Shown: positions 43,501 through 52,800 of the stretch, piece after piece
Layout of the letters: every line of letters starts with the position of its first letter
Position numbering within the stretch: position 1 is the stretch's first letter
Origin: Gemmatimonadota bacterium
GTDB lineage: Bacteria > Gemmatimonadota > Gemmatimonadetes > Longimicrobiales > Longimicrobiaceae
NCBI GenBank assembly: GCA_013820915.1
Contig: JACDHR010000001.1
Span: 8,641-72,640, forward strand
Length of the DNA stretch: 64,000 bases
Reading direction: 5' to 3'
The notes under the pieces: model-generated
The model's database searches: none
Told to the model about the DNA's origin: nothing
What the model saw: only the letters and a program-made list of their open reading frames with translations
Made by a program: the position numbers and the translations under genes

Positions 43501-46116
43501 TCACCGAGCCATATGCATTTCCAGCTCAGCCCGATAGCGGTCCGCGTCTCCCGTTCTGCCCCACGCGTCGTATAGCTCCACGAGCGCTTCAAGCACGAAC
43601 TGTGTTCCCGGAGGACCGCCCGCGGAACGGGCGCGGCGATCGATGCCGAGCAGCACACGTTCGGCATCGCCAAACCTTCCGTGCAGGAACATCGAAGTGG
43701 CCAGGTGCGAGCTAGTTTTCAGTATGCGAATGTCCTCCGGACCCAGTTGCATCGTCCGGAACCGCTCGAGTGACTCGACGAGTAACGGCTCGGCCTCGGC
43801 ACCTCTGCCGAGAGTGTTCAAGATTCCGCCGAGGTGGGAAAGCGGGTAGGCTTTGGACGAGGAGTTCGGGTCCACCTGGTCGTAGAGAGCGATGGTTTCA
43901 CGGAAGATCGGCTCCGCGAGGTCCAGTTCGCCACGGTCCCGGTGGACGGCGGCGAGGTTGCTGAGCATTCCAAGGGCCTGCGGGTGTCGCTTCTGGACGA
44001 GTTTGTCCATGATCTCGACGGCGCGGCGCAGTAGCCGGACGCTCTCCTCCGAGTCGTCCGGTTCGACTGCGAGCGCGAGGTCGCTCAGGCTCCCCGCCAC
44101 CTCGATGCTCTCCTCGCCGAGCAGTGCTATGCGCAGCTCGAGCGCCTCGCGCATACGGTCCGGTCCACTCTCGCCGTCGAGCAACAAGGGATTGGCTTCG
44201 GAGCCATACGCAGAGATGACGAGCACGTGCGCCAGGTTCTCGCGCACATCGTCCGTCGATTCGCGGAAGATCCGGATAGCGCGCCGGTACATCGCCCTCA
44301 CCTCTTCGTTCGGAACGACGCCGCGGAAGCTGAGGGAATGGCCATAGTCTGTCAGGATTCGCCCGACGACCTGGTGGGATGGACCCGCGTGGCGTTCGGC
44401 CAGCGTGAGCGCTTCGCGATACAGGGAGTCGCTGCGCGCGGGATCGCTCCGTTGGAGCAGGAATGCGATCGCTCTCAGGTCGTCCGCATGGTCGGCGGCG
44501 TGCTCCGTTGCGACCAGGCGGCGCGCGGATACAGCATCCGTGTACAGCGCGAGCGCGCGCTCGTTCACCCCGTACTCCTGGTACACTCTCGCGATAGCCG
44601 AGAGCAGCGACGCCCTGACCGGCGGCTGCTCCACGAGGCGGACCTCGAGCCGACGAGCGGCTTCATCGAGCAACTCACGGGCGGTCACCATCCCGCCCTT
44701 GGTGACGTTGGGGCCCGAAAACGTGAAAACCTCCCGCATGAAGCCGGCGACCTGGCGAGCCTTTTCCGCCTCGACCCGCGCGCGGTCGCGCTCCCGCTCC
44801 AACGCCTGCGCGTGTAGTTGCAGGGTAGCCGAGTAGCCGATTCCGGCCAGAGAGATCAGCATCCCCGCCGCCACCGTGCCCGGGCGCCGTCTGATCAGCT
44901 TTTTCGCGCGGTAGCCCCACGTAGCGGGTCGGGCGGCAACCGGCCGGCGATCGAGGTGCCGCTCCACATCCTCGGCCAGATCCGCCGCGGACGCGTAGCG
45001 CTGTTCCGGCTCGCTCCGCAGGGCCTTGGCGACGATGGTATCGATGTCGCCGGAGAGCCGCGCGCGTAAGCGGCGGGGGTCGGTCCCGCGGCGGGTTGCG
45101 ATCACCGCCACGATGTCGCCGCCGGGCCCCGCCTCTCCCGCCTCTCCCCTCCGTCGAAGCGCCTGACTGGGGCGCTCCGGATCCTGCTCGCGGACCGCCG
45201 TCTCGAACGCCTGCGGGGAGCGGCTCTCGATCCGGTACGGCCGCCGTCCGCTCACCAACTCATAGAGCAGCAGCCCGAGCTGGTACACGTCCACGGCGGT
45301 GGTGATCGGGTCGCCGCGCACCTGCTCGGGGCTCGCGTAGGCCGGCGTCATCGGGCGGAGGCCGGTCCGCGTCAGCGGCGTGTCGCGGAGCGCCGGATCG
45401 GCGTGCAGCAGCTTGGCGATGCCGAAGTCCAGGAGCTTGGGCGTTCCGTCGCCGGTCACCAGGATGTTGGACGGCTTGATGTCGCGATGGACGATCAGTT
45501 TGCGGTGAGCGTGCTGGACCGCGCGGCAGACGGTAGCGAACAGGCGGAGACGCTCGCCGATACCGAGACGCCGCGAGTCGCAGTATTCTGTGATGGGCTC
45601 ACCCTCGACGAGTTCCATGATGAGGTACGGCCGGCCGTCGTCAGTCGCTCCGCCGTCGTAGAGGCGTGCGATGTTCGGATGGCTGAGCGACGCGAGGATT
45701 CGCCGCTCCGCGCGGAAACGCTCGAGCACATCCGCCGTGTCCAGCCCGCGACGCAGGATCTTGACGGCCAGCCGCTGCTCGAAGTCTCCACCTACGCGCT
45801 CCGCCGCGTACACGGTGCCGGTGCCGCCGCGTCCGATCGGTGCGAGGAGCCGATAGGCGCCGACTCGCCTGCCGACGTCCTCCGCGTCGCAATCGAGTTC
45901 ATCAGCGAGGGTGACGAGGAGGGCGGGGTCTTCGAGGAAATCCGGAGCGGTCTCGACTGAAGCCACCAACTCGGACGCGAGCCGAAGAAGATCCTCATCG
46001 CCGCCGCACGCCTCCCGCAAAAAGGCAGCGCGGGCGCTCGGTGCGCGGTCCAGCGCGGCGTCGAAAAGCGCGTTGACCTCGCGCCACCGATCCAGCACCA
46101 CCTTTCCCGTGGTCAT
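43501..46116 (-). CDS. Ser/Thr protein kinase with TM segment and C-terminal TPR repeats (module 2)
   Basis: ATG at 46116 (MTTGKVVLDRWREV...). GRGGTGTVY, LAVKIL, HRDIKPSNIL and DFGIAK motifs. Paralog of 37531..40422. Confidence 0.9.
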   Translation of the reverse strand: MTTGKVVLDRWREVNALFDAALDRAPSARAAFLREACGGDEDLLRLASELVASVETAPDFLEDPALLVTLADELDCDAEDVGRRVGAYRLLAPIGRGGTGTVYAAERVGGDFEQRLAVKILRRGLDTADVLERFRAERRILASLSHPNIARLYDGGATDDGRPYLIMELVEGEPITEYCDSRRLGIGERLRLFATVCRAVQHAHRKLIVHRDIKPSNILVTGDGTPKLLDFGIAKLLHADPALRDTPLTRTGLRPMTPAYASPEQVRGDPITTAVDVYQLGLLLYELVSGRRPYRIESRSPQAFETAVREQDPERPSQALRRRGEAGEAGPGGDIVAVIATRRGTDPRRLRARLSGDIDTIVAKALRSEPEQRYASAADLAEDVERHLDRRPVAARPATWGYRAKKLIRRRPGTVAAGMLISLAGIGYSATLQLHAQALERERDRARVEAEKARQVAGFMREVFTFSGPNVTKGGMVTARELLDEAARRLEVRLVEQPPVRASLLSAIARVYQEYGVNERALALYTDAVSARRLVATEHAADHADDLRAIAFLLQRSDPARSDSLYREALTLAERHAGPSHQVVGRILTDYGHSLSFRGVVPNEEVRAMYRRAIRIFRESTDDVRENLAHVLVISAYGSEANPLLLDGESGPDRMREALELRIALLGEESIEVAGSLSDLALAVEPDDSEESVRLLRRAVEIMDKLVQKRHPQALGMLSNLAAVHRDRGELDLAEPIFRETIALYDQVDPNSSSKAYPLSHLGGILNTLGRGAEAEPLLVESLERFRTMQLGPEDIRILKTSSHLATSMFLHGRFGDAERVLLGIDRRARSAGGPPGTQFVLEALVELYDAWGRTGDADRYRAELEMHMAR

Positions 46117-46181: not shown

Positions 46182-46766
46182 CTAATCCGCCTGAGGGCCG
46201 TCCCGCAGCAGGTGGTAGAGATACGCCTTGGCGCGCGTCCAGTCTCGCTCCACCGTACTGGACGAGACACCCAGCACTTCCGCCGTTTCCCCGGTACTCA
46301 GCCCGCCGAAGAAGCGGCACTCCACCACCCGCTCCAGGCGCGGATCGTGGCTGGCGAGCTGCGAAAGCGCCTCGTCGAGTTCGATCAGATCGACCGACTG
46401 CTGCTCGGACGCGACCGACCCGGGTTGCAGCGTCACGTGGATCACTTCGCCACCGCGCTTCCGGGTGCCACGTCCGCGGGCATGGTCGATCAGCACGTGG
46501 CGCATCGCCTTGGATACGAAGGCGCGAAACCGCACCGGTTCCCTCCATTCGATCTCCGGACGCTCCGAAAGTTTCAAATAGGCTTCGTGCACGAGCGCGG
46601 TGGTGACGAGCGTGTGGCCGGCTCGCTCACGCCGAAGATGCCGCCGCGCGATCTCGCGCAGCTCGTCGTAGAAAAGCGCGAAGAGCCGGTCGAACTCACC
46701 CGGGCTCAGGTCCGGGGAGGCCGCGGCCGCTGCACGCTCACCCGCGTTGTTCGGCACCACGGACAT
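46182..46766 (-). CDS. ECF-type sigma-70 family factor, kinase-associated type (module 2)
   Basis: ATG at 46766. LVHEAYLKL and ECRFFGGLSTGETAEVLGVSSSTVERDW. Paralog of 40440..41051. Confidence 0.9.
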   Translation of the reverse strand: MSVVPNNAGERAAAAASPDLSPGEFDRLFALFYDELREIARRHLRRERAGHTLVTTALVHEAYLKLSERPEIEWREPVRFRAFVSKAMRHVLIDHARGRGTRKRGGEVIHVTLQPGSVASEQQSVDLIELDEALSQLASHDPRLERVVECRFFGGLSTGETAEVLGVSSSTVERDWTRAKAYLYHLLRDGPQAD

Positions 46767-47050
46767 ACGGAGACTCCATCGAGAACGGTGGGGGGGGAGA
46801 CGCCGCGAGGCCGCGGCTGTCGAGGTGTGGGTGGTGATGGGATCGCCACGGTTTTCCCGCCTTCCAAATCGGAACCCACGCTCCGGCGGTTCCAGCGGCG
46901 TGACCCGCATTTCAGTCAAAATAATGCTACACTCTCGGGATCGCCAGAAACCGCGAATCCACTCGCATGACGGTCGCGAGCCGGAATTCCCGCCTTGTAG
47001 AATAAGTGTCGGTACGCAGCCCCCGTTTCCGTAACCGCAGGAGGATCGAG

Positions 47051-48328
47051 ATGATTTTCCAACGTCATTTAGCAGTGGTCGCAGTGGTGCTTTGTACCCT
47101 CTTCGCCCTGCCGGAAGGCGCCGATGCGCAGGTCGGCAAACGACTCCGCGAGCGCGCCAAGGAAAAGGTAGAGCAGCGCATCGAGAAGCGCGCCGATCAG
47201 GCGATGGAGAAGGCGCTGGACGGGACCGAGAACGCGATCACCTGCGTGGTCACCGACGCCGCCTGCATCGAAAAGGCGGGCAGGGAGGGACGGCAGGTGG
47301 TGGTCACCGATGCGGGGGGCAACGCGGTTGCCGGGGGCGCGAGCCCCGCGCCGGCAGCCGGCCAGCGAGCGGGTGAGGGCGCCTGGGCCAACTTCGATTT
47401 CGTGACCGGCGACCGCGCGCTCTTCGCGGAAGACTTCAGCCGGGACCGCGTGGGCAACTTCCCCCAGCGGCTGGAGCTGCGCGGCGGCAATATGGAGATC
47501 GTCGAGTGGCAGGGCAGGCGCTACCTGCGCAGCACGGCGGAGGGCTCCTTCGACGTGATCCTGCCGGAGGTGCTGCCGGAGCGCTTCACCGTCGAGTTCG
47601 ATCTTTTCGATCCCTCGTTCTGGCCCACCTTCGTATACGGGGTCGACTCACAACGTAAGCCGGAAGAGCACACTCGCGCTTTTTTCGCCTTTAATAAAGA
47701 GTCCGGCCTGGTGACCGGCAACCTCACCGTAAACCCCGCGGCCGGAAAATCCGCCGCCGAGATCGTTCCCCGCGAGAAGATGATGCGCGTCAGCATCATG
47801 GCCGACGGCAGATACATGAAAGTGTTCCTGGACGAGAACCGGATCTCCAACCTGCCATCCGCGGACTTTCCACGCAGCAACCGCATCCGCTTCGACCTGC
47901 CGTCGGGGACTTCGGCGGAAAAGCCGTTGTTGATCGGCAACCTCCGCATCGCCGCCGGTGGGACCTCGCTCTACGACGCGCTGCAGGCCGACGGGCGGGT
48001 GTCCACGCAGGGAATCCTGTTCGACACCGGCAGCGACCGGATCCGCCCGGAAAGCACGCCCACGCTGAAGGAGATTACCGGCATGCTCAAGGAGCACGGC
48101 TCGCTCCGGCTGATGATCGAGGGCCACACCGACAACGTCGGCCAGGCCGCGTCGAACCAGGCGCTCTCGGAGAAGCGTGCCGCCGCCGTCAGGGCGCACC
48201 TGGTCGGCCAGGGGATCGATGCCGCGCGGCTGCAAGCGGCAGGCAAGGGGCAGAGCGAGCCCGCCGGCTCCAACGATACGCCGGAAGGGCGCCAGAACAA
48301 CCGCCGCGTCGTGCTGGTGCGGCAGTGA
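47051..48328 (+). CDS. OmpA-family (peptidoglycan-binding C-terminal domain) exported protein
   Basis: RBS AGGAGGA and a signal peptide. C-terminal ILFDTGSDRIRPES...IEGHTDNVG...NQALSEKRA...NRRVVLV OmpA_C motif set. Confidence 0.85.
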   Translation: MIFQRHLAVVAVVLCTLFALPEGADAQVGKRLRERAKEKVEQRIEKRADQAMEKALDGTENAITCVVTDAACIEKAGREGRQVVVTDAGGNAVAGGASPAPAAGQRAGEGAWANFDFVTGDRALFAEDFSRDRVGNFPQRLELRGGNMEIVEWQGRRYLRSTAEGSFDVILPEVLPERFTVEFDLFDPSFWPTFVYGVDSQRKPEEHTRAFFAFNKESGLVTGNLTVNPAAGKSAAEIVPREKMMRVSIMADGRYMKVFLDENRISNLPSADFPRSNRIRFDLPSGTSAEKPLLIGNLRIAAGGTSLYDALQADGRVSTQGILFDTGSDRIRPESTPTLKEITGMLKEHGSLRLMIEGHTDNVGQAASNQALSEKRAAAVRAHLVGQGIDAARLQAAGKGQSEPAGSNDTPEGRQNNRRVVLVRQ

Positions 48329-48375
48329 GGCCGCACCAGCGTTTTTCGTCCATTCTCCGAACCCGGAAATCACCC

Positions 48376-49128
48376 ATGGACACACGTTGCGTCACCCTCG
48401 GCTCACTGCTCGCCGCGGCAGTTCTCGTCTCCCCCCCGTTTGTCGTGGAGGTCGTGGCACAGCAGGACCTGCGGCTCAGCGCCGCCGAAGGGAGCGTCGC
48501 CGCCCTGTCCGTGCCCCTCGATATCCGCCAGACGGAGAGCTGGAAGCGCAGCGGCGGCGAGGTTCAGTGGGACGTGCTCCTCCAGCCGACGGGCGTCGTC
48601 TCCAACCAGGGCCGCACCGCGGCAACGCTGATCCTCTACGCCGTGTCGGCCGCGGACCGTACCTCGCCGAAGCTGACCGGTCTGCGGGCGGAGAGCGGGC
48701 GCTACTCGCTGGGGTTCGCGAGCTCGGCGGAGTTGCGCGGCTGGAGCGGCCCGAAATACTGCAAGTCGACCCACTGCTGGCTGCCGATCGGCACCGCGGA
48801 TACGCCGGTGCTGATAGAGATGAAACTCCGGCCCGGCGAGCGGCTGGACGTCGGCACGGCTCGGCTCCGGAACCAGGCTGCGATCGGCGCCCTCATGGCG
48901 GCCGGCCCGGTGCACCTCGGGATCCTCGCCATGGCGGATCCGCTCGCCGACGGCACGGTTTCCCCGCTTCGCGTTGGTTTCGCGCTGTTCGACATGCCGT
49001 TGCGGCCCGAGGCATTTCCGGGCGACCACTTCTTTCCCGGCGACCACTTCTTTCCCGGCGACCACTTCTTTCCCGGCGACCACTTCTTTCCTGGCGACCA
49101 CTTCTCCTCACTCGTCTTGTCCCGATGA
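48376..49128 (+). CDS. exported hypothetical protein ending in five tandem FPGDHF repeats
   Basis: ATG at 48376 and a signal peptide (LLAAAVLVSPPFVV). The C-terminus is ...EAFPGDHFFPGDHFFPGDHFFPGDHFFPGDHFSSLVLSR. No family recognised. Confidence 0.6.
   Translation: MDTRCVTLGSLLAAAVLVSPPFVVEVVAQQDLRLSAAEGSVAALSVPLDIRQTESWKRSGGEVQWDVLLQPTGVVSNQGRTAATLILYAVSAADRTSPKLTGLRAESGRYSLGFASSAELRGWSGPKYCKSTHCWLPIGTADTPVLIEMKLRPGERLDVGTARLRNQAAIGALMAAGPVHLGILAMADPLADGTVSPLRVGFALFDMPLRPEAFPGDHFFPGDHFFPGDHFFPGDHFFPGDHFSSLVLSR
49025..49114 (+). repeat. 5 x 18-bp near-perfect tandem repeat (TTTCCCGGCGACCACTTC) encoding FPGDHF
   Basis: Units at 49025, 49043, 49061, 49079 and 49097. Units 2-4 are identical; units 1 and 5 each differ at one base. 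Confidence 0.95.
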
Positions 49129-49549
49129 AAACCACTACGACACTGCTCCTGATCCCTCGGGTCGCGTTGCTCACCGCGTGTGATTCCGAGGACAGCGACG
49201 ACCGGAGCGCGGAAAGAGACGCGCGCTGATTCGATCGATTGCCGGTACACCGCGCAGGGCGTGATCACCAGAGACGGGAAAAGCGCGGTCATCAACGTCG
49301 GAGAGTATGAGCAAGGCGGCGCGATGAAGCCGGGCAACACCGGCTCCATCTCGTACATGATCGGCGGTCGATGACACGTAAGGCTTGTTGGCGCATCCGG
49401 CACGCGCCATCGCAGGACTCAATGGTTCACCCGATCCCAAGGAGGTCCGAATGTAGAGGTGATGCGAAAACCAACGGATACACCGCCGGATCCGGTTGCG
49501 GACAACCACCGCCGACCACGACCCATCTATGCGAAAGGATGATGCACCG

Positions 49550-50023
49550 ATGAGCACGAAGAACGAACACGCCGAGCAGCAACCAGCCCAACGCAGCACA
49601 CCCGCCGGCATACCGGACCAGCCCGTAGACCGCCGGAAGTTCCTCGGCAAGAGCGCGGCCCTGGCGGCCGCGGCAACCGTCGGCGGTGCGGCAACCCTTT
49701 CGGCAAGCCCAATTCGGGCCGCGGAGTTTGCTGCCGGTGGGCGCTCCACCCCCGGTACGATGCACGTCACCTTCGAGTTCCAGTCCAGGGGCTCCTGCGA
49801 CGCCTCGCAGCTTGAAAAGCAGATCCAGGGCAACAGCCGAATTCTCGGCCGGATCGTAAACGAGCGCGCGTGCGCTGGCGATTTCGGCGAATGGCTTCGC
49901 GACGCCAGCGACGATGATGAGGTTTCTCTCCAGCGCGTCGGTTTCAACAGCGTTCCGCTCACGGGTGACCCGCGTTTACCAACTCGACCCCCCCGCAGCC
50001 CAACGACGGGGACCCCGGCCTAG
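49550..50023 (+). CDS. small Tat-signal (twin-arginine) exported protein, unknown function
   Basis: RBS AAAGGA then ATG at 49550. DRRKFLGKSAALAAAATVGGA is a canonical RR motif plus h-region. The mature part (~100 aa) has two Cys, an acidic patch and a Pro-rich tail. Confidence 0.65.
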   Translation: MSTKNEHAEQQPAQRSTPAGIPDQPVDRRKFLGKSAALAAAATVGGAATLSASPIRAAEFAAGGRSTPGTMHVTFEFQSRGSCDASQLEKQIQGNSRILGRIVNERACAGDFGEWLRDASDDDEVSLQRVGFNSVPLTGDPRLPTRPPRSPTTGTPA

Positions 50024-50151
50024 GCGATCGAGCAGCGCCGCCCGCATGCATGACGACGGGCGGATACGGGGGTGCTGGAGCCGGCTCCCGTATTCGCTCG
50101 CGACAGCCTGAACAGTTAGACACCACGTACCAGAACCAGGGACGGCAGCAC

Positions 50152-51321
50152 ATGGTCCATTCCGTGATTCTCAAATCGATCCGCGCGTGCAACCTGCGCT
50201 GCACCTACTGCTACTACATCAACGAGGACACCCCCGAATACGGGCTCACGATGTCCGACGCGTGTCTCGAGCGGGTCTACGCCTCCTATGCGGAGTACCT
50301 CCACGACAACGGTGCGCGAGGCTCTCTGGTGTGGCACGGCGGAGAACCGCTGATGCTGGGCCGGCCCCGGCTCCAGCGGCTCCTCGACCTGCAGCGCCGC
50401 TTCTTCGCGCCCGGCTCGATCGAGAACCATCTGCAAACCAACGGGCTCCTGATCACGGACGAGTGGATCGACTTCTTCAAGAGGAACGACGTCAAGGTGG
50501 GCCTCAGCCTGGACGGAACCAAGGAGGTGCACGACCGGTTCCGCGTGACCAAGGGAGGTAAGGGCAGCTATGATCTGGTCATACGTGCCATTGAGCGGTT
50601 GCGCGGACACGGGATCGAGGTCGGCGTGCTGACCGTGATGGGAAGCACACCGGATGGACGGAGGGAGTTGATGCACCTGCGTGACGAACTCCGCATACGC
50701 GGAGCCGATTTCCTCTTCCCCATCAGCAGCCACGCGCTCGCGCGGCGCTCACCACTCGATCAGAAGATCCTTTCGGAGTTCCTGCTTTCCGCCTTCCAGA
50801 CCTGGACCGAGGCCGACGATTCTTTATTCACGGTCCGCCTGTTCCGAGCGTTGATCAAGAACGCGATGGGTATGCCGCACAATTACTTCGCGAGCGGAGC
50901 GGCGAGTCTCGGTGCCGCGGTCATCGTTGAAACCGACGGGAAGGTCTGCATGGACACGGATTTCAGCGAGATCGACCGCTACGACCTCGGCAGTGAATAC
51001 CGGTTCGACTTCAGCGTGATGGACGAGGACTTCACGTTCGCGAAGGTGGACCGGGCGCTGCACGCCCGGATCGAGGAAAGACAGCTCGACCGGATCCCCG
51101 CCGACTGCCAGAGTTGCCGGATGCGCTCTGTCTGCCGAGGCGCGCACCCAGCGTCCCGGTATGATGACCGGGACCACTCCTTCGATCACCGCAGCGTTTA
51201 CTGCGAAGCGATGTACGACATCTCCGACGCCGTGGTCGAGTACCTGGTGCGGAGTGGCCACGGAGAGGACCTGGCCGACGCGGATCTACAACACGACCTG
51301 CGAACCGCGGTGCCGGCTTGA
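50152..51321 (+). CDS. radical SAM enzyme with C-terminal SPASM-like Cys cluster (peptide/protein maturase type)
   Basis: CNLRCTYC (CX3CX2C, 50188..50211), GGEPL, LQTNGLL, VETDGKVC. C-terminal CQSCRMRSVCRGAH...YC. ATG at 50152. Confidence 0.85.
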   Translation: MVHSVILKSIRACNLRCTYCYYINEDTPEYGLTMSDACLERVYASYAEYLHDNGARGSLVWHGGEPLMLGRPRLQRLLDLQRRFFAPGSIENHLQTNGLLITDEWIDFFKRNDVKVGLSLDGTKEVHDRFRVTKGGKGSYDLVIRAIERLRGHGIEVGVLTVMGSTPDGRRELMHLRDELRIRGADFLFPISSHALARRSPLDQKILSEFLLSAFQTWTEADDSLFTVRLFRALIKNAMGMPHNYFASGAASLGAAVIVETDGKVCMDTDFSEIDRYDLGSEYRFDFSVMDEDFTFAKVDRALHARIEERQLDRIPADCQSCRMRSVCRGAHPASRYDDRDHSFDHRSVYCEAMYDISDAVVEYLVRSGHGEDLADADLQHDLRTAVPA

Positions 51322-51522
51322 TATCGCTGACGGGACAGCGGCGCCTCGGCGGATCCCTGGTCGAACGCCTTTCGCGGGGAGTGTCTTCGAGCGCTGGCGA
51401 CCAGACCTTCGCCAGGCGAACCGCCCCGAAGCCGAGGCGGTGGCCCGCAGGATCGCCGCTGCTCTCTGATGTTCATGCCGGCACGCAAGCCCAAAGAACG
51501 ATTGAACCCGAAAGGCACGCCC

Positions 51523-52074
51523 ATGATGACATGCATGATCCGGATGATCGTGATCTGCGCCGCGCTCGCGGCGTGTGGCGGTGACCGCGGCAACGATTCC
51601 GGCAACCCGGGAGCGGCGGCCGCGAACGGCGTGGAGCGGACCGTCGGCTCGGAGGCTTCGGAGGCTTCCTCGTTCCATGCCACGGTGAGCGGTGCCATCG
51701 ACCGAACGCTGGAAGGAAATGGCGCGCTCGCTGGCTCCAAATACGGCCGCTACCACATCAACATGGCGTCGCGGGAGCGGCAGGGAGGGCAGCCCGTCGT
51801 GGTGATCGCCTTCGGCCGCACCGACACGAACACGCCTGCTCTCGGCACCTACGCGCTGGGGAGCGGCGACGGCTTTCGCGGAACCGTGGAGGTCTATGGC
51901 GATCCGCAGCGGGAGTTCCAGATCACCTCCGGCGAGCTCGAGATCACCGGCGCCGACGGCGACGTGCTCACGGGCCGCTTCTTCTTTTCCGCGAGCGAGA
52001 GGACCGAGGAGTACAGCAGCCAGCCCGCGGAGATCCGGGCCGAGGGAACGTTCCGTACGCGGCCGGCCGAGTGA
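51523..52074 (+). CDS. hypothetical lipoprotein
   Basis: Several ATGs at 51523-51544, then IVICAALAAC (lipobox). No family recognised. Confidence 0.55.
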   Translation: MMTCMIRMIVICAALAACGGDRGNDSGNPGAAAANGVERTVGSEASEASSFHATVSGAIDRTLEGNGALAGSKYGRYHINMASRERQGGQPVVVIAFGRTDTNTPALGTYALGSGDGFRGTVEVYGDPQREFQITSGELEITGADGDVLTGRFFFSASERTEEYSSQPAEIRAEGTFRTRPAE

Positions 52075-52149
52075 GACGCCCCGACCGGATTGCCAGCGAC
52101 CCCCGCGAACGCCGCGGCGCGGCGGCCATTCATCCCCTGGAGACGTAAA

Positions 52150-52800
52150 ATGAAACGCACCCTCATGATCCTCGCCACACTGCTGGCCGAACTGAGCGCC
52201 AGCTGCGGCGATAGCCCGGCGGGGCCCAGTGATGGGCCACCCGAAAGGGGCGGGGAACGGTTTGACATGGGGAGCGGCGGCGGCACCTTCAAACTCTTTG
52301 AAGGCAAACAAACTCGTTGAAGGCAAAGTCGAGTTCGCGATCCCCGCCGGCGCACTCCCCGGGGGAACCACCATTTCCGTCCGACAGCTAGAGGGCGCGG
52401 AACTCCCGAGCAGCCCTGCTCCGCTACCCGGTACTGCGTTCCGCTTCGAGCCGGCCGGCCTGGTATTCGCCGAGCCGGTCACCCTCACCCTTCAGTTCGA
52501 TCCCGCGCAGCTCCCCACGGAGCGCAGCCCGACTGGTCGCCCGATGGTACGCGGATCGCGTTCTCCATCGCCTCCGGAAGCGGGTGGAGGATCCAGGTGC
52601 TCACGTTGGCGACGGGCGCGGTCACGACGGTACTCAGCGACGGTGCGGTGAACTGGTATCCCGCGTGGTCGCCCGACGGTGCGTGGATCATGCACTCGAA
52701 GAACGCGACGGGCAGCAGCAGCCCGGCCGGCTCCGAGATCTGGGCGATCCGCGCCGATGGCACAGGGGCGATCCTCGTAAAGGCGGCAGCCCGGTTCTGA
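52150..52800 (+). pseudogene. disrupted lipoprotein gene (lipobox N-terminus + beta-sandwich-like segment + PD40/TolB-like WSPDG repeats) split over three frames
   Basis: Frame 1: MKRTLMILATLLAELSASC... stops at 52320. Frame 2 continues ...LVEGKVEFAIPAGALPGGTTISV.... Frame 1 resumes with DWSPDGTRIAF...YPAWSPDGAWI to 52800. A 19-bp tandem duplication (52291..52328) explains the first shift. Confidence 0.6.

What the first reader, a model, noticed from the sequence alone, without database searches (positions are those of the whole stretch)
49550..51321. Small Tat-signal protein followed by an orphan radical SAM/SPASM-like maturase: candidate undescribed pre-export protein-modification system
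Seen in sequence: a 157-aa ORF with a canonical twin-arginine signal (DRRKFLGKSAALAAAATVGG...SPIRA). Its mature part (~100 aa) has only two Cys, each next to an Asp (GSCDAS and RACAGDFGEW), an acidic DASDDDE patch and a Pro-rich tail. A 389-aa radical SAM protein follows 128 nt downstream. It has CX3CX2C at its N-terminus and a C-terminal auxiliary-cluster Cys motif.
Established: SPASM-type rSAM enzymes modify peptides or proteins in the cytoplasm. Examples are anSME (formylglycine in sulfatases), QhpD (Cys-to-Asp/Glu thioethers in QhpC), PqqE, MftC, sactisynthases and cyclophane-forming enzymes. The Tat pathway exports already folded or modified proteins.
Inference: the Tat protein, the upstream FPGDHF protein, or both, is the substrate. 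None of the known partner sets is present. There is no sulfatase or C/S-x-P/A-x-R motif, no qhpA/qhpB, no pqq or mft genes, and no ABC/peptidase RiPP export set. The chemistry and product are therefore not predictable from known systems.
Basis: partly seen in the sequence, partly recalled or inferred. Interest (0 to 1): 0.78.

Follow-up and report, generated by a model that had tools for sequence, protein, structure and literature searches.

The report
Tat-exported small protein with radical-SAM cross-linker
A soil Gemmatimonadota bacterium pairs an unclassified radical SAM enzyme, related to peptide cyclophane-forming enzymes, with a small conserved partner protein that here carries a twin-arginine export signal, which suggests a peptide cross-linked in the cytoplasm and then exported by the cell's general Tat pathway.

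Summary
A 157-aa ORF with a twin-arginine signal (49550-50023) lies 128 nt upstream of a 389-aa radical SAM (rSAM) gene (50152-51321).

The rSAM belongs to a small, distinct family of about 62 clusters. No member reaches any NCBIfam cut-off. Its closest relatives are the triceptide synthase ChlB (TM 0.80-0.84), YhhB/FxsB and anSME. It keeps only the CX2CX5C...C auxiliary-cluster cysteines.

The small protein is the conserved partner. A small ORF with the motif W-x-[KRQE]-[WF]-x-[QER] lies beside the rSAM in all 22 informative loci. In most phyla it lies just downstream and has no signal. In one Gemmatimonadota-type clade (four distinct loci) it lies upstream and has an RRxF[LV] Tat signal and an invariant G-E-W-L-x-D block.

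The FPGDHF protein is absent from related loci.

Best reading (inferred, about 0.5): the enzyme cross-links F112-G-E and W115-L-R into cyclophanes in the cytoplasm, then Tat exports the product.

Caveat: sequence homology between the Tat-type and downstream-type partners is weak.

Verdict: a new variant of a known kind, of moderate interest.

The parts
49550..50023 (+). Small partner/precursor protein, 157 aa, Tat-type
   Evidence: ORF. Orthologues lie upstream of orthologous rSAMs in L081, L099, L104, L101 and L102. Alignment A6. The AF2 model has low confidence, pLDDT 49.9 with one helix at residues 85-104, so it looks peptide-like.
49550..49720 (+). Twin-arginine signal peptide, residues 1-57: R28-R29-K-F31-L, hydrophobic region, predicted cleavage IRA|AE
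   Evidence: TIGR01409 scores 20.0 bits against a cut-off of 16.7. RR-x-F-[LV] plus a hydrophobic stretch is present in 4 of 4 distinct Tat-type partners and in 0 of 35 downstream-type partners. The cleavage site is inferred from the AxA rule.
49751..49783 (+). Leader-like block P68-G-T-M-H-V-T-F-E-F-Q78
   Evidence: M71, V73, F75 and F77 are invariant in A6. The block aligns with P-x-x-I-E-V-T-R-x-L-D-L of downstream-type partners (hhalign P = 5e-4; alignment). A role in enzyme recognition is inferred.
49883..49903 (+). Putative core F112-G-E-W115-L-R-D118: two aromatic-X-X triads, FGE and WLR
   Evidence: G113, E114, W115, L116 and D118 are invariant in the Tat-type set. The family consensus is W-x-[KRQE]-[WF]-x-[QER]. 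W1 is present in 45 of 46 unique partners, and the window has F instead. The motif background is 0.012 per 100 aa in the window's six-frame ORFs.
49928..49957 (+). C-terminal conserved block L127-Q-R-V-G-F-N-S-V-P136
   Evidence: L127, F132, V135 and P136 are invariant in A6. It may correspond to the T-R-R-Y-R-V block of downstream-type partners, but that correspondence is weak.
50152..51321 (+). Radical SAM enzyme, 389 aa, unclassified family in the anSME / cyclophane-synthase clade
50188..50211 (+). C13-x3-C17-x2-C20 radical SAM cluster motif
   Evidence: Invariant in 31 of 31 family members.
51106..51204 (+). Reduced SPASM region: C319-x2-C322-x5-C328-x3-H332 ... C351
   Evidence: C319, C322, C328 and C351 are invariant, and H332 is nearly so. 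They align with the anSME auxiliary cluster II ligands C317/C320/C326/C348, with H332 at the position of auxiliary cluster I ligand C330. The anSME ligand numbering is from my own knowledge of Goldman et al. 2013.
50947..50949 (+). C266, nearly invariant lone Cys in the G-x-x-C-x-D hairpin
   Evidence: It lies near the position of anSME C276, and ChlB has no Cys there. Its role is unexplained.
46182..46766 (-). ECF sigma factor (PF07638 type); neighbourhood conserved in the Tat-type clade, possible regulator
   Evidence: Adjacent to the module in the window, L101, L081 (49% identity) and L100. A regulatory link is inferred only.
43501..46113 (-). Ser/Thr kinase with TPR region, paired with the ECF sigma
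   Evidence: 48% identical to the L081 neighbour. A kinase also follows the sigma gene in L100. Pfam domains were called for the L101 copy.

Best explanation
This is a two-gene module for modifying a peptide or small protein. The 389-aa radical SAM enzyme acts in the cytoplasm on the 157-aa protein encoded just upstream.

The enzyme probably recognises the leader-like block (P68...F77). It then cross-links the invariant core F112-G-E-W115-L-R. By analogy with triceptide synthases (ChlB, YhhB, XncB), the 5'-deoxyadenosyl radical abstracts a side-chain hydrogen from the third residue of each aromatic-X-X triad (E114, R117). The carbon radical attacks the ring of F112 or W115. The retained auxiliary [4Fe-4S] cluster (C319/C322/C328/C351) takes the electron. 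The result is two three-residue cyclophanes, with a loss of 2 Da each.

The N-terminal twin-arginine signal then routes the finished product through the general Tat pathway. Signal peptidase releases a product of about 100 aa into the periplasm or envelope. No dedicated protease or exporter is needed. The adjacent ECF sigma / Ser-Thr kinase pair may control expression.

Shown: gene pair, family membership, co-conservation, motif conservation, signal motif.
Inferred: substrate relationship, cross-link chemistry, order of modification and export, regulation.
For: (1) Co-conservation. A small ORF carrying the aromatic motif flanks the rSAM in all 22 loci with enough flanking sequence, about 18 of them distinct. 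These span Gemmatimonadota-type, Acidobacteria, Chloroflexi and Alphaproteobacteria.

(2) The enzyme forms a distinct family. About 62 clusters score E < 1e-64, then there is a sharp drop to anSME-like hits at about 30% identity.

(3) The nearest solved structure is the multiple-cyclophane synthase ChlB. This holds by sequence (E = 8e-31) and by fold (TM 0.80-0.84, E = 2e-27, ahead of anSME at 8e-22). The model has pLDDT 93.5. The best NCBIfam model is the cyclophane-forming YhhB.

(4) Like ChlB, the enzyme has CX2CX5C...C without the fourth Cys.

(5) The most conserved block of the partner is a run of aromatic-X-X triads: W1 in 45 of 46, [KRQE]3, [WF]4, [QER]6. G-E-W-L-x-D is invariant in the Tat-type set. 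Triceptide synthases act on such triads, including those with Phe and Trp (PMC11499958, PMC11002830).

(6) The Tat signal is present in 4 of 4 distinct upstream-type partners and in 0 of 35 downstream-type partners. The corresponding rSAMs form one clade.

(7) The partner is predicted to be largely unstructured, like a precursor peptide.

(8) Precedent: bufferins are RiPPs with a general-secretion (Sec) signal and ECF-sigma control (PMC11626156).
Against: - No experimental data exist.
- Every cyclophane-synthase HMM is far below its cut-off: YhhB 205.6 against 445, FxsB 174.9 against 370, XyeB 129 against 450. anSME scores about as well, 200 against 349. The wider clade also contains enzymes with other chemistry, such as formylglycine, ether, C-N and cyclopropyl formation (PMC11002830).
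- Homology between the Tat-type and downstream-type partners is weak. A profile built from downstream-type partners alone gives E = 0.9-2.9 on the Tat-type ORFs. hhalign supports only the leader block (P = 5e-4, probability 30%).
- The window has Phe where 45 of 46 partners have Trp.
- The third triad is missing in the Tat-type clade.
- L081 and L099 do not reach the TIGR01409 cut-off, so the Tat call for those two rests on the motif read by eye.
- pN/pS between Tat-type partners is 0.39-0.77, so constraint is loose outside the conserved blocks.
Confidence: 0.5

Rival explanations
1. The enzyme and substrate are as above, but the chemistry differs. The rSAM installs another modification on the aromatic core. 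Candidates are a Trp/Phe-Trp C-C, C-O or C-N link as in darobactin and dynobactin, a C-gamma link as made by WprB, a larger ring (i to i+3, F112 to W115), or a hydroxylation or epimerisation.
For: DynA, DarW and DarE models also match at 115-163 bits. The aromatic residues at positions 1 and 4 are both conserved, so an aromatic-aromatic link is possible. The clade is chemically diverse (PMC11002830). WprB links Trp-C5 to Arg-C-gamma (PMC11851443).
Against: ChlB, YhhB and FxsB score higher than the DarE and DynA families. Position 3 is restricted to K/R/Q/E and position 6 to Q/E/R. That restriction is what a donor residue at i+2 would predict.
Confidence: 0.28
2. The rSAM is an anaerobic sulfatase-maturating enzyme, or a similar oxidase, whose substrate is encoded elsewhere. 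The small ORF is an unrelated neighbour.
For: One public source names the identical protein 'anaerobic sulfatase-maturation protein'. TIGR03942 is the second-best model at 200 bits. Fold similarity to anSME is TM 0.78-0.83.
Against: The score is far below the 349.45-bit cut-off for all 31 members. Equivalents of the anSME auxiliary cluster I ligands C255, C261 and C330 are missing. Linkage to the small ORF holds across phyla. No sulfatase signature C/S-x-P/A-x-R...TG occurs in any credible long coding frame of the window or in the partner.
Confidence: 0.05
3. The small protein is not the substrate. It is an accessory or product-unrelated periplasmic protein, and the shared motif between the Tat-type and downstream-type ORFs is a coincidence.
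For: The independent profile search is not significant. The motif alone has roughly a 1-2% chance of occurring in a protein of this size.
Against: Gene adjacency holds in every informative locus. The motif is the single most conserved block in both sets. The Tat ORFs are four of the six best hits among 1016 ORFs even though they are not significant. A cytoplasmic Fe-S enzyme cannot have a periplasmic accessory partner unless it meets that partner before export.
Confidence: 0.1
4. The upstream FPGDHF-repeat protein is the substrate or a co-substrate.
For: It has five tandem aromatic-rich hexapeptides, which resemble repeat-type triceptide precursors. It lies on the same strand, directly upstream.
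Against: It is absent from L081, L099 and L104. It has a Sec-type signal. The repeat number varies (3 or 5 copies) between near-identical strains. The only distant homologue whose locus was read (P0158) lies next to mraZ with no rSAM.
Confidence: 0.03

Closest known systems
ChlB / FxsB-family triceptide (three-residue cyclophane) synthases (PDB 9GM3, 9GMC; TIGR04269)
   Same: Best PDB match by sequence and by fold. Both have the reduced C-terminal Cys set CX2CX5C...C with no fourth Cys. Both share the R-Y...H-x-x-V-Y-C block. Both act on a precursor with several consecutive aromatic-X-X motifs.
   Different: Only 24-25% identical. The score of 174.9 bits is below the 370 cut-off. There is no fused or adjacent HExxH hydroxylase. 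The precursor family is unrelated. This family also keeps a conserved C266 and H332. The partner here has a Tat signal.
YhhB cyclophane-forming rSAM (NF041707)
   Same: Best-scoring NCBIfam model, aligned end to end over residues 3-365.
   Different: 205.6 bits against a cut-off of 445. According to PMC11002830, YhhB acts on Tyr/His-x-Arg motifs.
Anaerobic sulfatase-maturating enzyme (TIGR03942; PDB 4K36-4K39)
   Same: Same fold (TM 0.78-0.83). The radical SAM cluster and the auxiliary cluster II cysteines are retained.
   Different: Below the cut-off. The auxiliary cluster I cysteines are missing. There is no sulfatase partner or C/S-x-P/A-x-R motif. The enzyme is tightly linked to a small Trp-motif protein.
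Bufferins (MNIO-modified RiPPs with Sec signal peptides; PMC11626156)
   Same: Both have a long precursor of about 100 aa that carries a general-secretion signal instead of relying on a dedicated exporter. Both appear to give a periplasmic product. Both have an ECF sigma factor nearby.
   Different: The enzyme class differs (MNIO/DUF692 against radical SAM), as does the chemistry (Cys to thiooxazole). Bufferins use Sec, not Tat.
QhpD/QhpC (quinohemoprotein amine dehydrogenase maturation; TIGR03906)
   Same: An rSAM cross-links a small protein destined for the periplasm.
   Different: Only the N-terminal half matches (106 bits against 453). There are no conserved Cys in the partner and no qhpA/qhpB genes.
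Darobactin/dynobactin maturases (DarE, DynA)
   Same: Same clade, with Trp-centred fused macrocycles on a short core.
   Different: Lower scores (115-163 bits against cut-offs of 450-650). Those precursors are short and are exported by ABC transporters.

Membership tests
Radical SAM superfamily (PF04055) | CX3CX2C cluster motif and a Pfam score above the gathering threshold | tested here: met
   C13/C17/C20 are invariant in 31 of 31 members. PF04055 scores 70 bits against 29.5.
SPASM domain (PF13186; seven-Cys CX9-15GX4C...CX2CX5CX3C...C, two auxiliary clusters) | Full seven-Cys motif or a PF13186 hit | tested here: not met
   There is no PF13186 hit for the query or for its 62 close relatives, whereas the anSME-like hits have one. 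Only C266, C319, C322, C328 and C351 are present. His332 replaces the CX3C cysteine, and there is no upstream Cys pair.
Anaerobic sulfatase maturase (TIGR03942) | Score at or above the curated cut-off | tested here: not met
   200.1 bits against 349.45. The best E-value among 31 members is 5e-65, still below the cut-off.
Anaerobic sulfatase maturase (TIGR03942) | Substrate carries C/S-x-P/A-x-R (sulfatase) | tested here: not met
   There is no such motif in the partner protein. No sulfatase signature occurs in any credible long coding frame of the window. The rest of the genome was not available.
Triceptide synthases / 3-CyFE (NF041707 YhhB, TIGR04269 FxsB, TIGR04496 XyeB, TIGR04261 GrrM) | Score at or above the curated cut-off of any member model | tested here: not met
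   205.6/445, 174.9/370, 129.3/450 and 110.8/310. No member of A1 does better.
Triceptide synthases / 3-CyFE | Fold of a solved triceptide synthase | tested here: met
   ChlB 9GM3/9GMC is the top Foldseek hit: TM 0.80-0.84, E = 2e-27.
Triceptide synthases / 3-CyFE | Adjacent precursor with conserved aromatic-X-X motifs | tested here: met
   Consensus W-x-[KRQE]-[WF]-x-[QER]-[FWY]-[VP]-[QR] in 46 unique partners. The window has F112-G-E-W115-L-R.
Triceptide synthases / 3-CyFE | Product has an aromatic C to C-beta cross-link between residues i and i+2 (loss of 2 Da) | not testable with these tools
   Needs co-expression followed by MS/MS and NMR.
Tat substrates (TIGR01409 twin-arginine signal) | S/T-R-R-x-F-L-K motif, hydrophobic region and AxA site at the N-terminus | tested here: met
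   The window scores 20.0 bits against 16.7. RR-x-F-[LV] is invariant in 4 of 4 Tat-type partners. L081 and L099 do not reach the model cut-off.
Tat substrates | TatABC-dependent export | not testable with these tools
   Needs reporter fusions and an RR to KK control.
QhpD (TIGR03906) | Score at or above the cut-off, a Cys-rich QhpC partner and qhpA/qhpB neighbours | tested here: not met
   106 bits against 453, N-terminal half only. The partner's Cys are not conserved. No qhp genes lie nearby.
RiPP precursor families in Pfam/NCBIfam | Partner matches a described precursor family | tested here: not met
   No family hit for seven partners of both types, apart from weak Tat-region matches.

The most novel reading that the evidence does not exclude
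A rare, uncharacterised rSAM-precursor system has been converted in one Gemmatimonadota lineage from a cytoplasmic leader-core arrangement into a Tat-routed one. Gene order was inverted and a twin-arginine signal was added in front of the leader. This would be the first natural radical-SAM-modified RiPP-like product exported by the general Tat pathway, possibly under ECF-sigma/kinase control as an envelope factor. The Tat pathway would act as the device that ensures modification comes first and export second.
Probability: 0.4. Interest if true: 0.7.

Novelty: new variant of a known kind. Interest (0 to 1): 0.55.

Why it matters
RiPP products normally leave the cell through dedicated transporters after leader removal. 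General-secretion signals on precursors are described as rare, and the known case (bufferins) uses Sec (PMC11626156). I found no natural Tat-signal RiPP precursor in the held literature.

A Tat-routed, radical-SAM cross-linked small protein would show that the folded-protein exporter is used to enforce modification before export for peptide natural products. It would add an unclassified enzyme and precursor family to the cyclophane-synthase landscape. About 62 enzyme clusters are known, and there are 28 partner representatives among 1.84 billion. It would also give a compact two-gene module, with no protease or exporter needed, for producing periplasmic macrocyclic peptides. Finally, it corrects a public 'anaerobic sulfatase-maturation protein' annotation.

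Tried and rejected
1. The genome-contig scan with the full rSAM alignment used the generic pattern CNLRCxYCY. It returned only anSME-like loci at no more than 32% identity and was useless for context. I replaced it with exact-protein look-ups and a metagenome scan using a C-terminal sub-alignment.

2. P0046 (Sphingomonas) was not on record for context.

3. The profile search of 1.84 billion representatives included the window sequence in the query alignment. Its hit on the 98%-identical P0124 is therefore circular, and I do not use it as evidence of homology.

4. dN/dS between the window and the near-identical L101 is uninformative (5 changes). The more distant pairs are saturated at synonymous sites.

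5. A k-mer comparison of the regions upstream of the Tat ORFs found no shared ECF-type promoter motif. The sigma-70/terminator scan found nothing meaningful. There were no Rfam hits in 46800-52500.

6. The ChlB paper (JACS 2025, doi 10.1021/jacs.4c16004) is not held, so I could not compare its leader-binding mode or cluster content.

7. The FPGDHF protein as substrate, thioether chemistry on the two Cys, and anSME identity were each considered and rejected. Reasons are under the rival explanations.
Full report
**1. What is in the sequence**

On the + strand the window encodes the following genes in order:
- an OmpA-like protein (about 47051-48328);
- a secreted protein ending in five FPGDHF repeats (48376-49128);
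- a 157-aa ORF (49550-50023);
- 128 nt later, a 389-aa radical SAM (rSAM) protein (50152-51321).

An ECF sigma factor (46182-46766) and a Ser/Thr kinase (43501-46113) lie upstream on the - strand.

Codon-position GC supports the reading frames. The values are 0.63/0.43/0.81 for the rSAM, 0.68/0.52/0.85 for the FPGDHF protein and 0.66/0.58/0.73 for the small ORF.

The small ORF has D-R-R-K-F-L-G-K, an Ala/Gly-rich hydrophobic stretch and IRA|AE. It passes the NCBIfam Tat-signal model at 20.0 bits against a cut-off of 16.7.

A public source assigns the identical rSAM protein to Gemmatimonadota.

**2. What the enzyme is**

Pfam finds only PF04055, with no SPASM model PF13186.

NCBIfam ranks the models as follows, all far below their cut-offs:

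| Model | Bits | Cut-off |
|---|---|---|
| YhhB, cyclophane-forming | 205.6 | 445 |
| anSME TIGR03942 | 200.1 | 349 |
| FxsB | 174.9 | 370 |
| DynA | 163 | 450 |

The same holds for all 31 aligned relatives.

In 5.8 billion proteins the enzyme has about 62 close relatives (at least 37% identity, E < 1e-64). There is then an abrupt drop to anSME-like proteins at about 30% identity, and those do carry PF13186. It is therefore a distinct, unnamed family.

Invariant residues are C13/C17/C20, then C319-x2-C322-x5-C328 and C351. C266 and H332 are nearly invariant.

Aligned to anSME, C319/C322/C328/C351 fall on the auxiliary cluster II ligands. H332 falls on the position of the auxiliary cluster I ligand C330. 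The two upstream auxiliary cluster I cysteines are missing (the ligand numbering is from my own knowledge of the anSME structure paper).

The best PDB hit by sequence is the triceptide 'multiple cyclophane synthase' ChlB (9GM3/9GMC, E = 8e-31). ChlB shows the same CX2CX5C-no-fourth-Cys...R-Y...V-Y-C pattern.

A confident AF2 model (pLDDT 93.5) also matches ChlB first (TM 0.80-0.84, E = 2e-27). It matches anSME second (TM 0.78-0.83, E = 8e-22) and CteB third.

**3. The partner protein is conserved**

I read the flanks of family members from exact-protein look-ups and a metagenome scan.

In all 22 loci with enough flanking DNA, about 18 of them distinct, a small ORF of 65-161 aa lies next to the rSAM on the same strand. 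Two loci, L091 and L100, are cut off at the relevant side.

In Alphaproteobacteria (Stappia stellulata), Acidobacteria-like, Chloroflexi-like and other contigs, the ORF lies immediately downstream and has no signal peptide. It shares three blocks:
- a leader-like block F-x-P-x-x-I-E-V-T-R-x-L-D-L-x-G-L;
- a core W-x-[KRQE]-[WF]-x-[QER]-[FWY]-[VP]-[QR];
- a C-terminal T-R-R-Y-R-V block.

Across 46 unique partners:
- position 1 is Trp in 45, and the window has Phe;
- position 3 is R/K/Q/E;
- position 4 is F/W;
- position 6 is Q/E/R.

An exhaustive profile search of 1.84 billion representatives found only 28 such proteins. None matches a Pfam or NCBIfam family. The pair is therefore rare and undescribed in those libraries.

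**4. The Tat-type clade**

The four rSAMs closest to the window's enzyme whose loci show the upstream side (58-65% identity; L081, L099, L104, plus the near-identical strains L101 and L102) all have the small ORF upstream instead.

Each has RR-x-F-[LV] followed by a hydrophobic stretch and an AxA-like site. None of the 35 downstream-type partners has this.

The corresponding rSAMs form one clade in a neighbour-joining tree.

Within the Tat-type set, the invariant residues in window numbering are:
- R28, R29, F31;
- M71, V73, F75, F77;
- G113, E114, W115, L116, D118;
- L127, F132, V135, P136.

The Pro-rich tail is not conserved either.

AF2 predicts the protein to be mostly unstructured, with pLDDT 49.9 and one helix, like a precursor peptide.

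The ECF sigma / kinase pair is syntenic in the window, L101, L081 (48-49% identity) and L100, in different orientations. OmpA precedes the module in the window, L101 and L099 only.

**5. What does not belong**

The FPGDHF protein is absent from L081, L099 and L104. Its repeat number differs (3 or 5) between near-identical strains.

Its only homologues in 5.8 billion proteins are two secreted proteins with FPGDHF-like repeats. The one whose locus I read, P0158, lies beside mraZ with no rSAM.

Nothing downstream of the rSAM is conserved among the Tat-type loci.

**6. Mechanism (inferred)**

The most economical reading is a two-gene module. The rSAM binds the leader-like block and cross-links the core in the cytoplasm. 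The Tat signal then exports the product, and signal peptidase removes residues 1-57.

The proposed chemistry is a three-residue cyclophane on F112-G-E114 and W115-L-R117, with a loss of 2 Da each. The proposal rests on three points:
- the nearest characterised relatives are triceptide synthases;
- the partner's conserved block is a run of aromatic-X-X triads with a restricted third residue;
- such enzymes accept both Trp and Phe (PMC11499958, PMC11002830).

**7. Caveats**

The clade also contains formylglycine-, ether-, C-N- and cyclopropyl-forming enzymes (PMC11002830). anSME scores almost as well as the cyclophane synthases.

The link between Tat-type and downstream-type partners is statistically weak. 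A profile of downstream-type partners alone gives E = 0.9-2.9 on the Tat ORFs, although they are four of the six best hits among 1016 ORFs. hhalign supports only the leader block (P = 5e-4, probability 30%). The core motif alone would occur by chance in about 1-2% of proteins of this size.

The argument therefore rests on the combination of three things. The enzymes are orthologous. The gene adjacency is fixed. The shared motif is the most conserved block in both sets.

**8. Comparison and novelty**

This is not an anSME, QhpD, PqqE or MftC system, and it is not a member of any curated cyclophane-synthase family. It most plausibly works like a triceptide synthase.

The closest functional analogy for the export logic is the bufferins. 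These are long RiPP precursors with a Sec signal and ECF-sigma control, described as 'rare examples' (PMC11626156).

Searches of the held literature found no natural RiPP precursor with a Tat signal. One paper only speculated about Tat as an engineering route (PMC5686179).

I rate it a new variant of a known kind, with interest 0.55.

Noticed in passing
window 48376-49128 (+); repeat 49015-49105: A secreted protein with a Sec-type signal ends in five tandem FPGDHF hexapeptides, encoded by an 18-nt tandem repeat with 97% matches. The copy number is 3 in near-identical strain L101 and 5 in L102. The only homologues in 5.8 billion proteins (P0158, P0159) are low-GC secreted proteins carrying FPGDHF/FPSDQF/FSGDHF repeats. 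P0158 lies next to mraZ. Function is unknown; the His/Asp/aromatic repeat might bind metal.
   Followed up: partly
window 49126-49229 (+): A 34-codon ORF, MKTTTTLLLIPRVALLTAC-DSEDSDDRSAERDAR, has a lipobox-like LTAC. It lies between the FPGDHF gene and the Tat ORF. It is identical in L101, but that strain is too close to be informative.
   Followed up: no
window 49440-49456 (+): A strong Shine-Dalgarno AGGAGG is followed by ATG-TAG (a start-stop) about 95 nt upstream of the Tat ORF start. In L099 the same AGGAGGTCC directly precedes the real start codon of the Tat ORF.
   Followed up: no
L098 5792-7225 (+); L083 1100-2257 (-): In the alphaproteobacterial-type loci with a W-C-Q-W core, an animal haem peroxidase gene lies next to the precursor. 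It is PF03098 in L098, and the L083 copy has a R-F-G-H-S motif. It may be a tailoring enzyme.
   Followed up: no
L088 475-843, 1155-1463, 1560-1934: One metagenomic locus has the order rSAM, precursor, then a second rSAM of the same family, so the maturase is duplicated.
   Followed up: no
L095 2516-3781: A Peptidase_M43 gene directly follows the precursor in one downstream-type locus. It may be a leader protease, but it is not conserved in other loci.
   Followed up: no
window 50152-51321; protein P0001: One public record names the identical protein 'anaerobic sulfatase-maturation protein'. The TIGR03942 score (200 bits) is far below the cut-off (349), and the auxiliary cluster I cysteines are missing. 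This is probably an over-annotation.
   Followed up: yes
window 50947-50949 and 51145-51147 (C266, H332): A lone, nearly invariant Cys and a His sit where anSME has two of its four auxiliary cluster I ligands, while the other two ligands are absent. ChlB has neither residue. It is unexplained whether they bind a metal or a degenerate cluster.
   Followed up: partly
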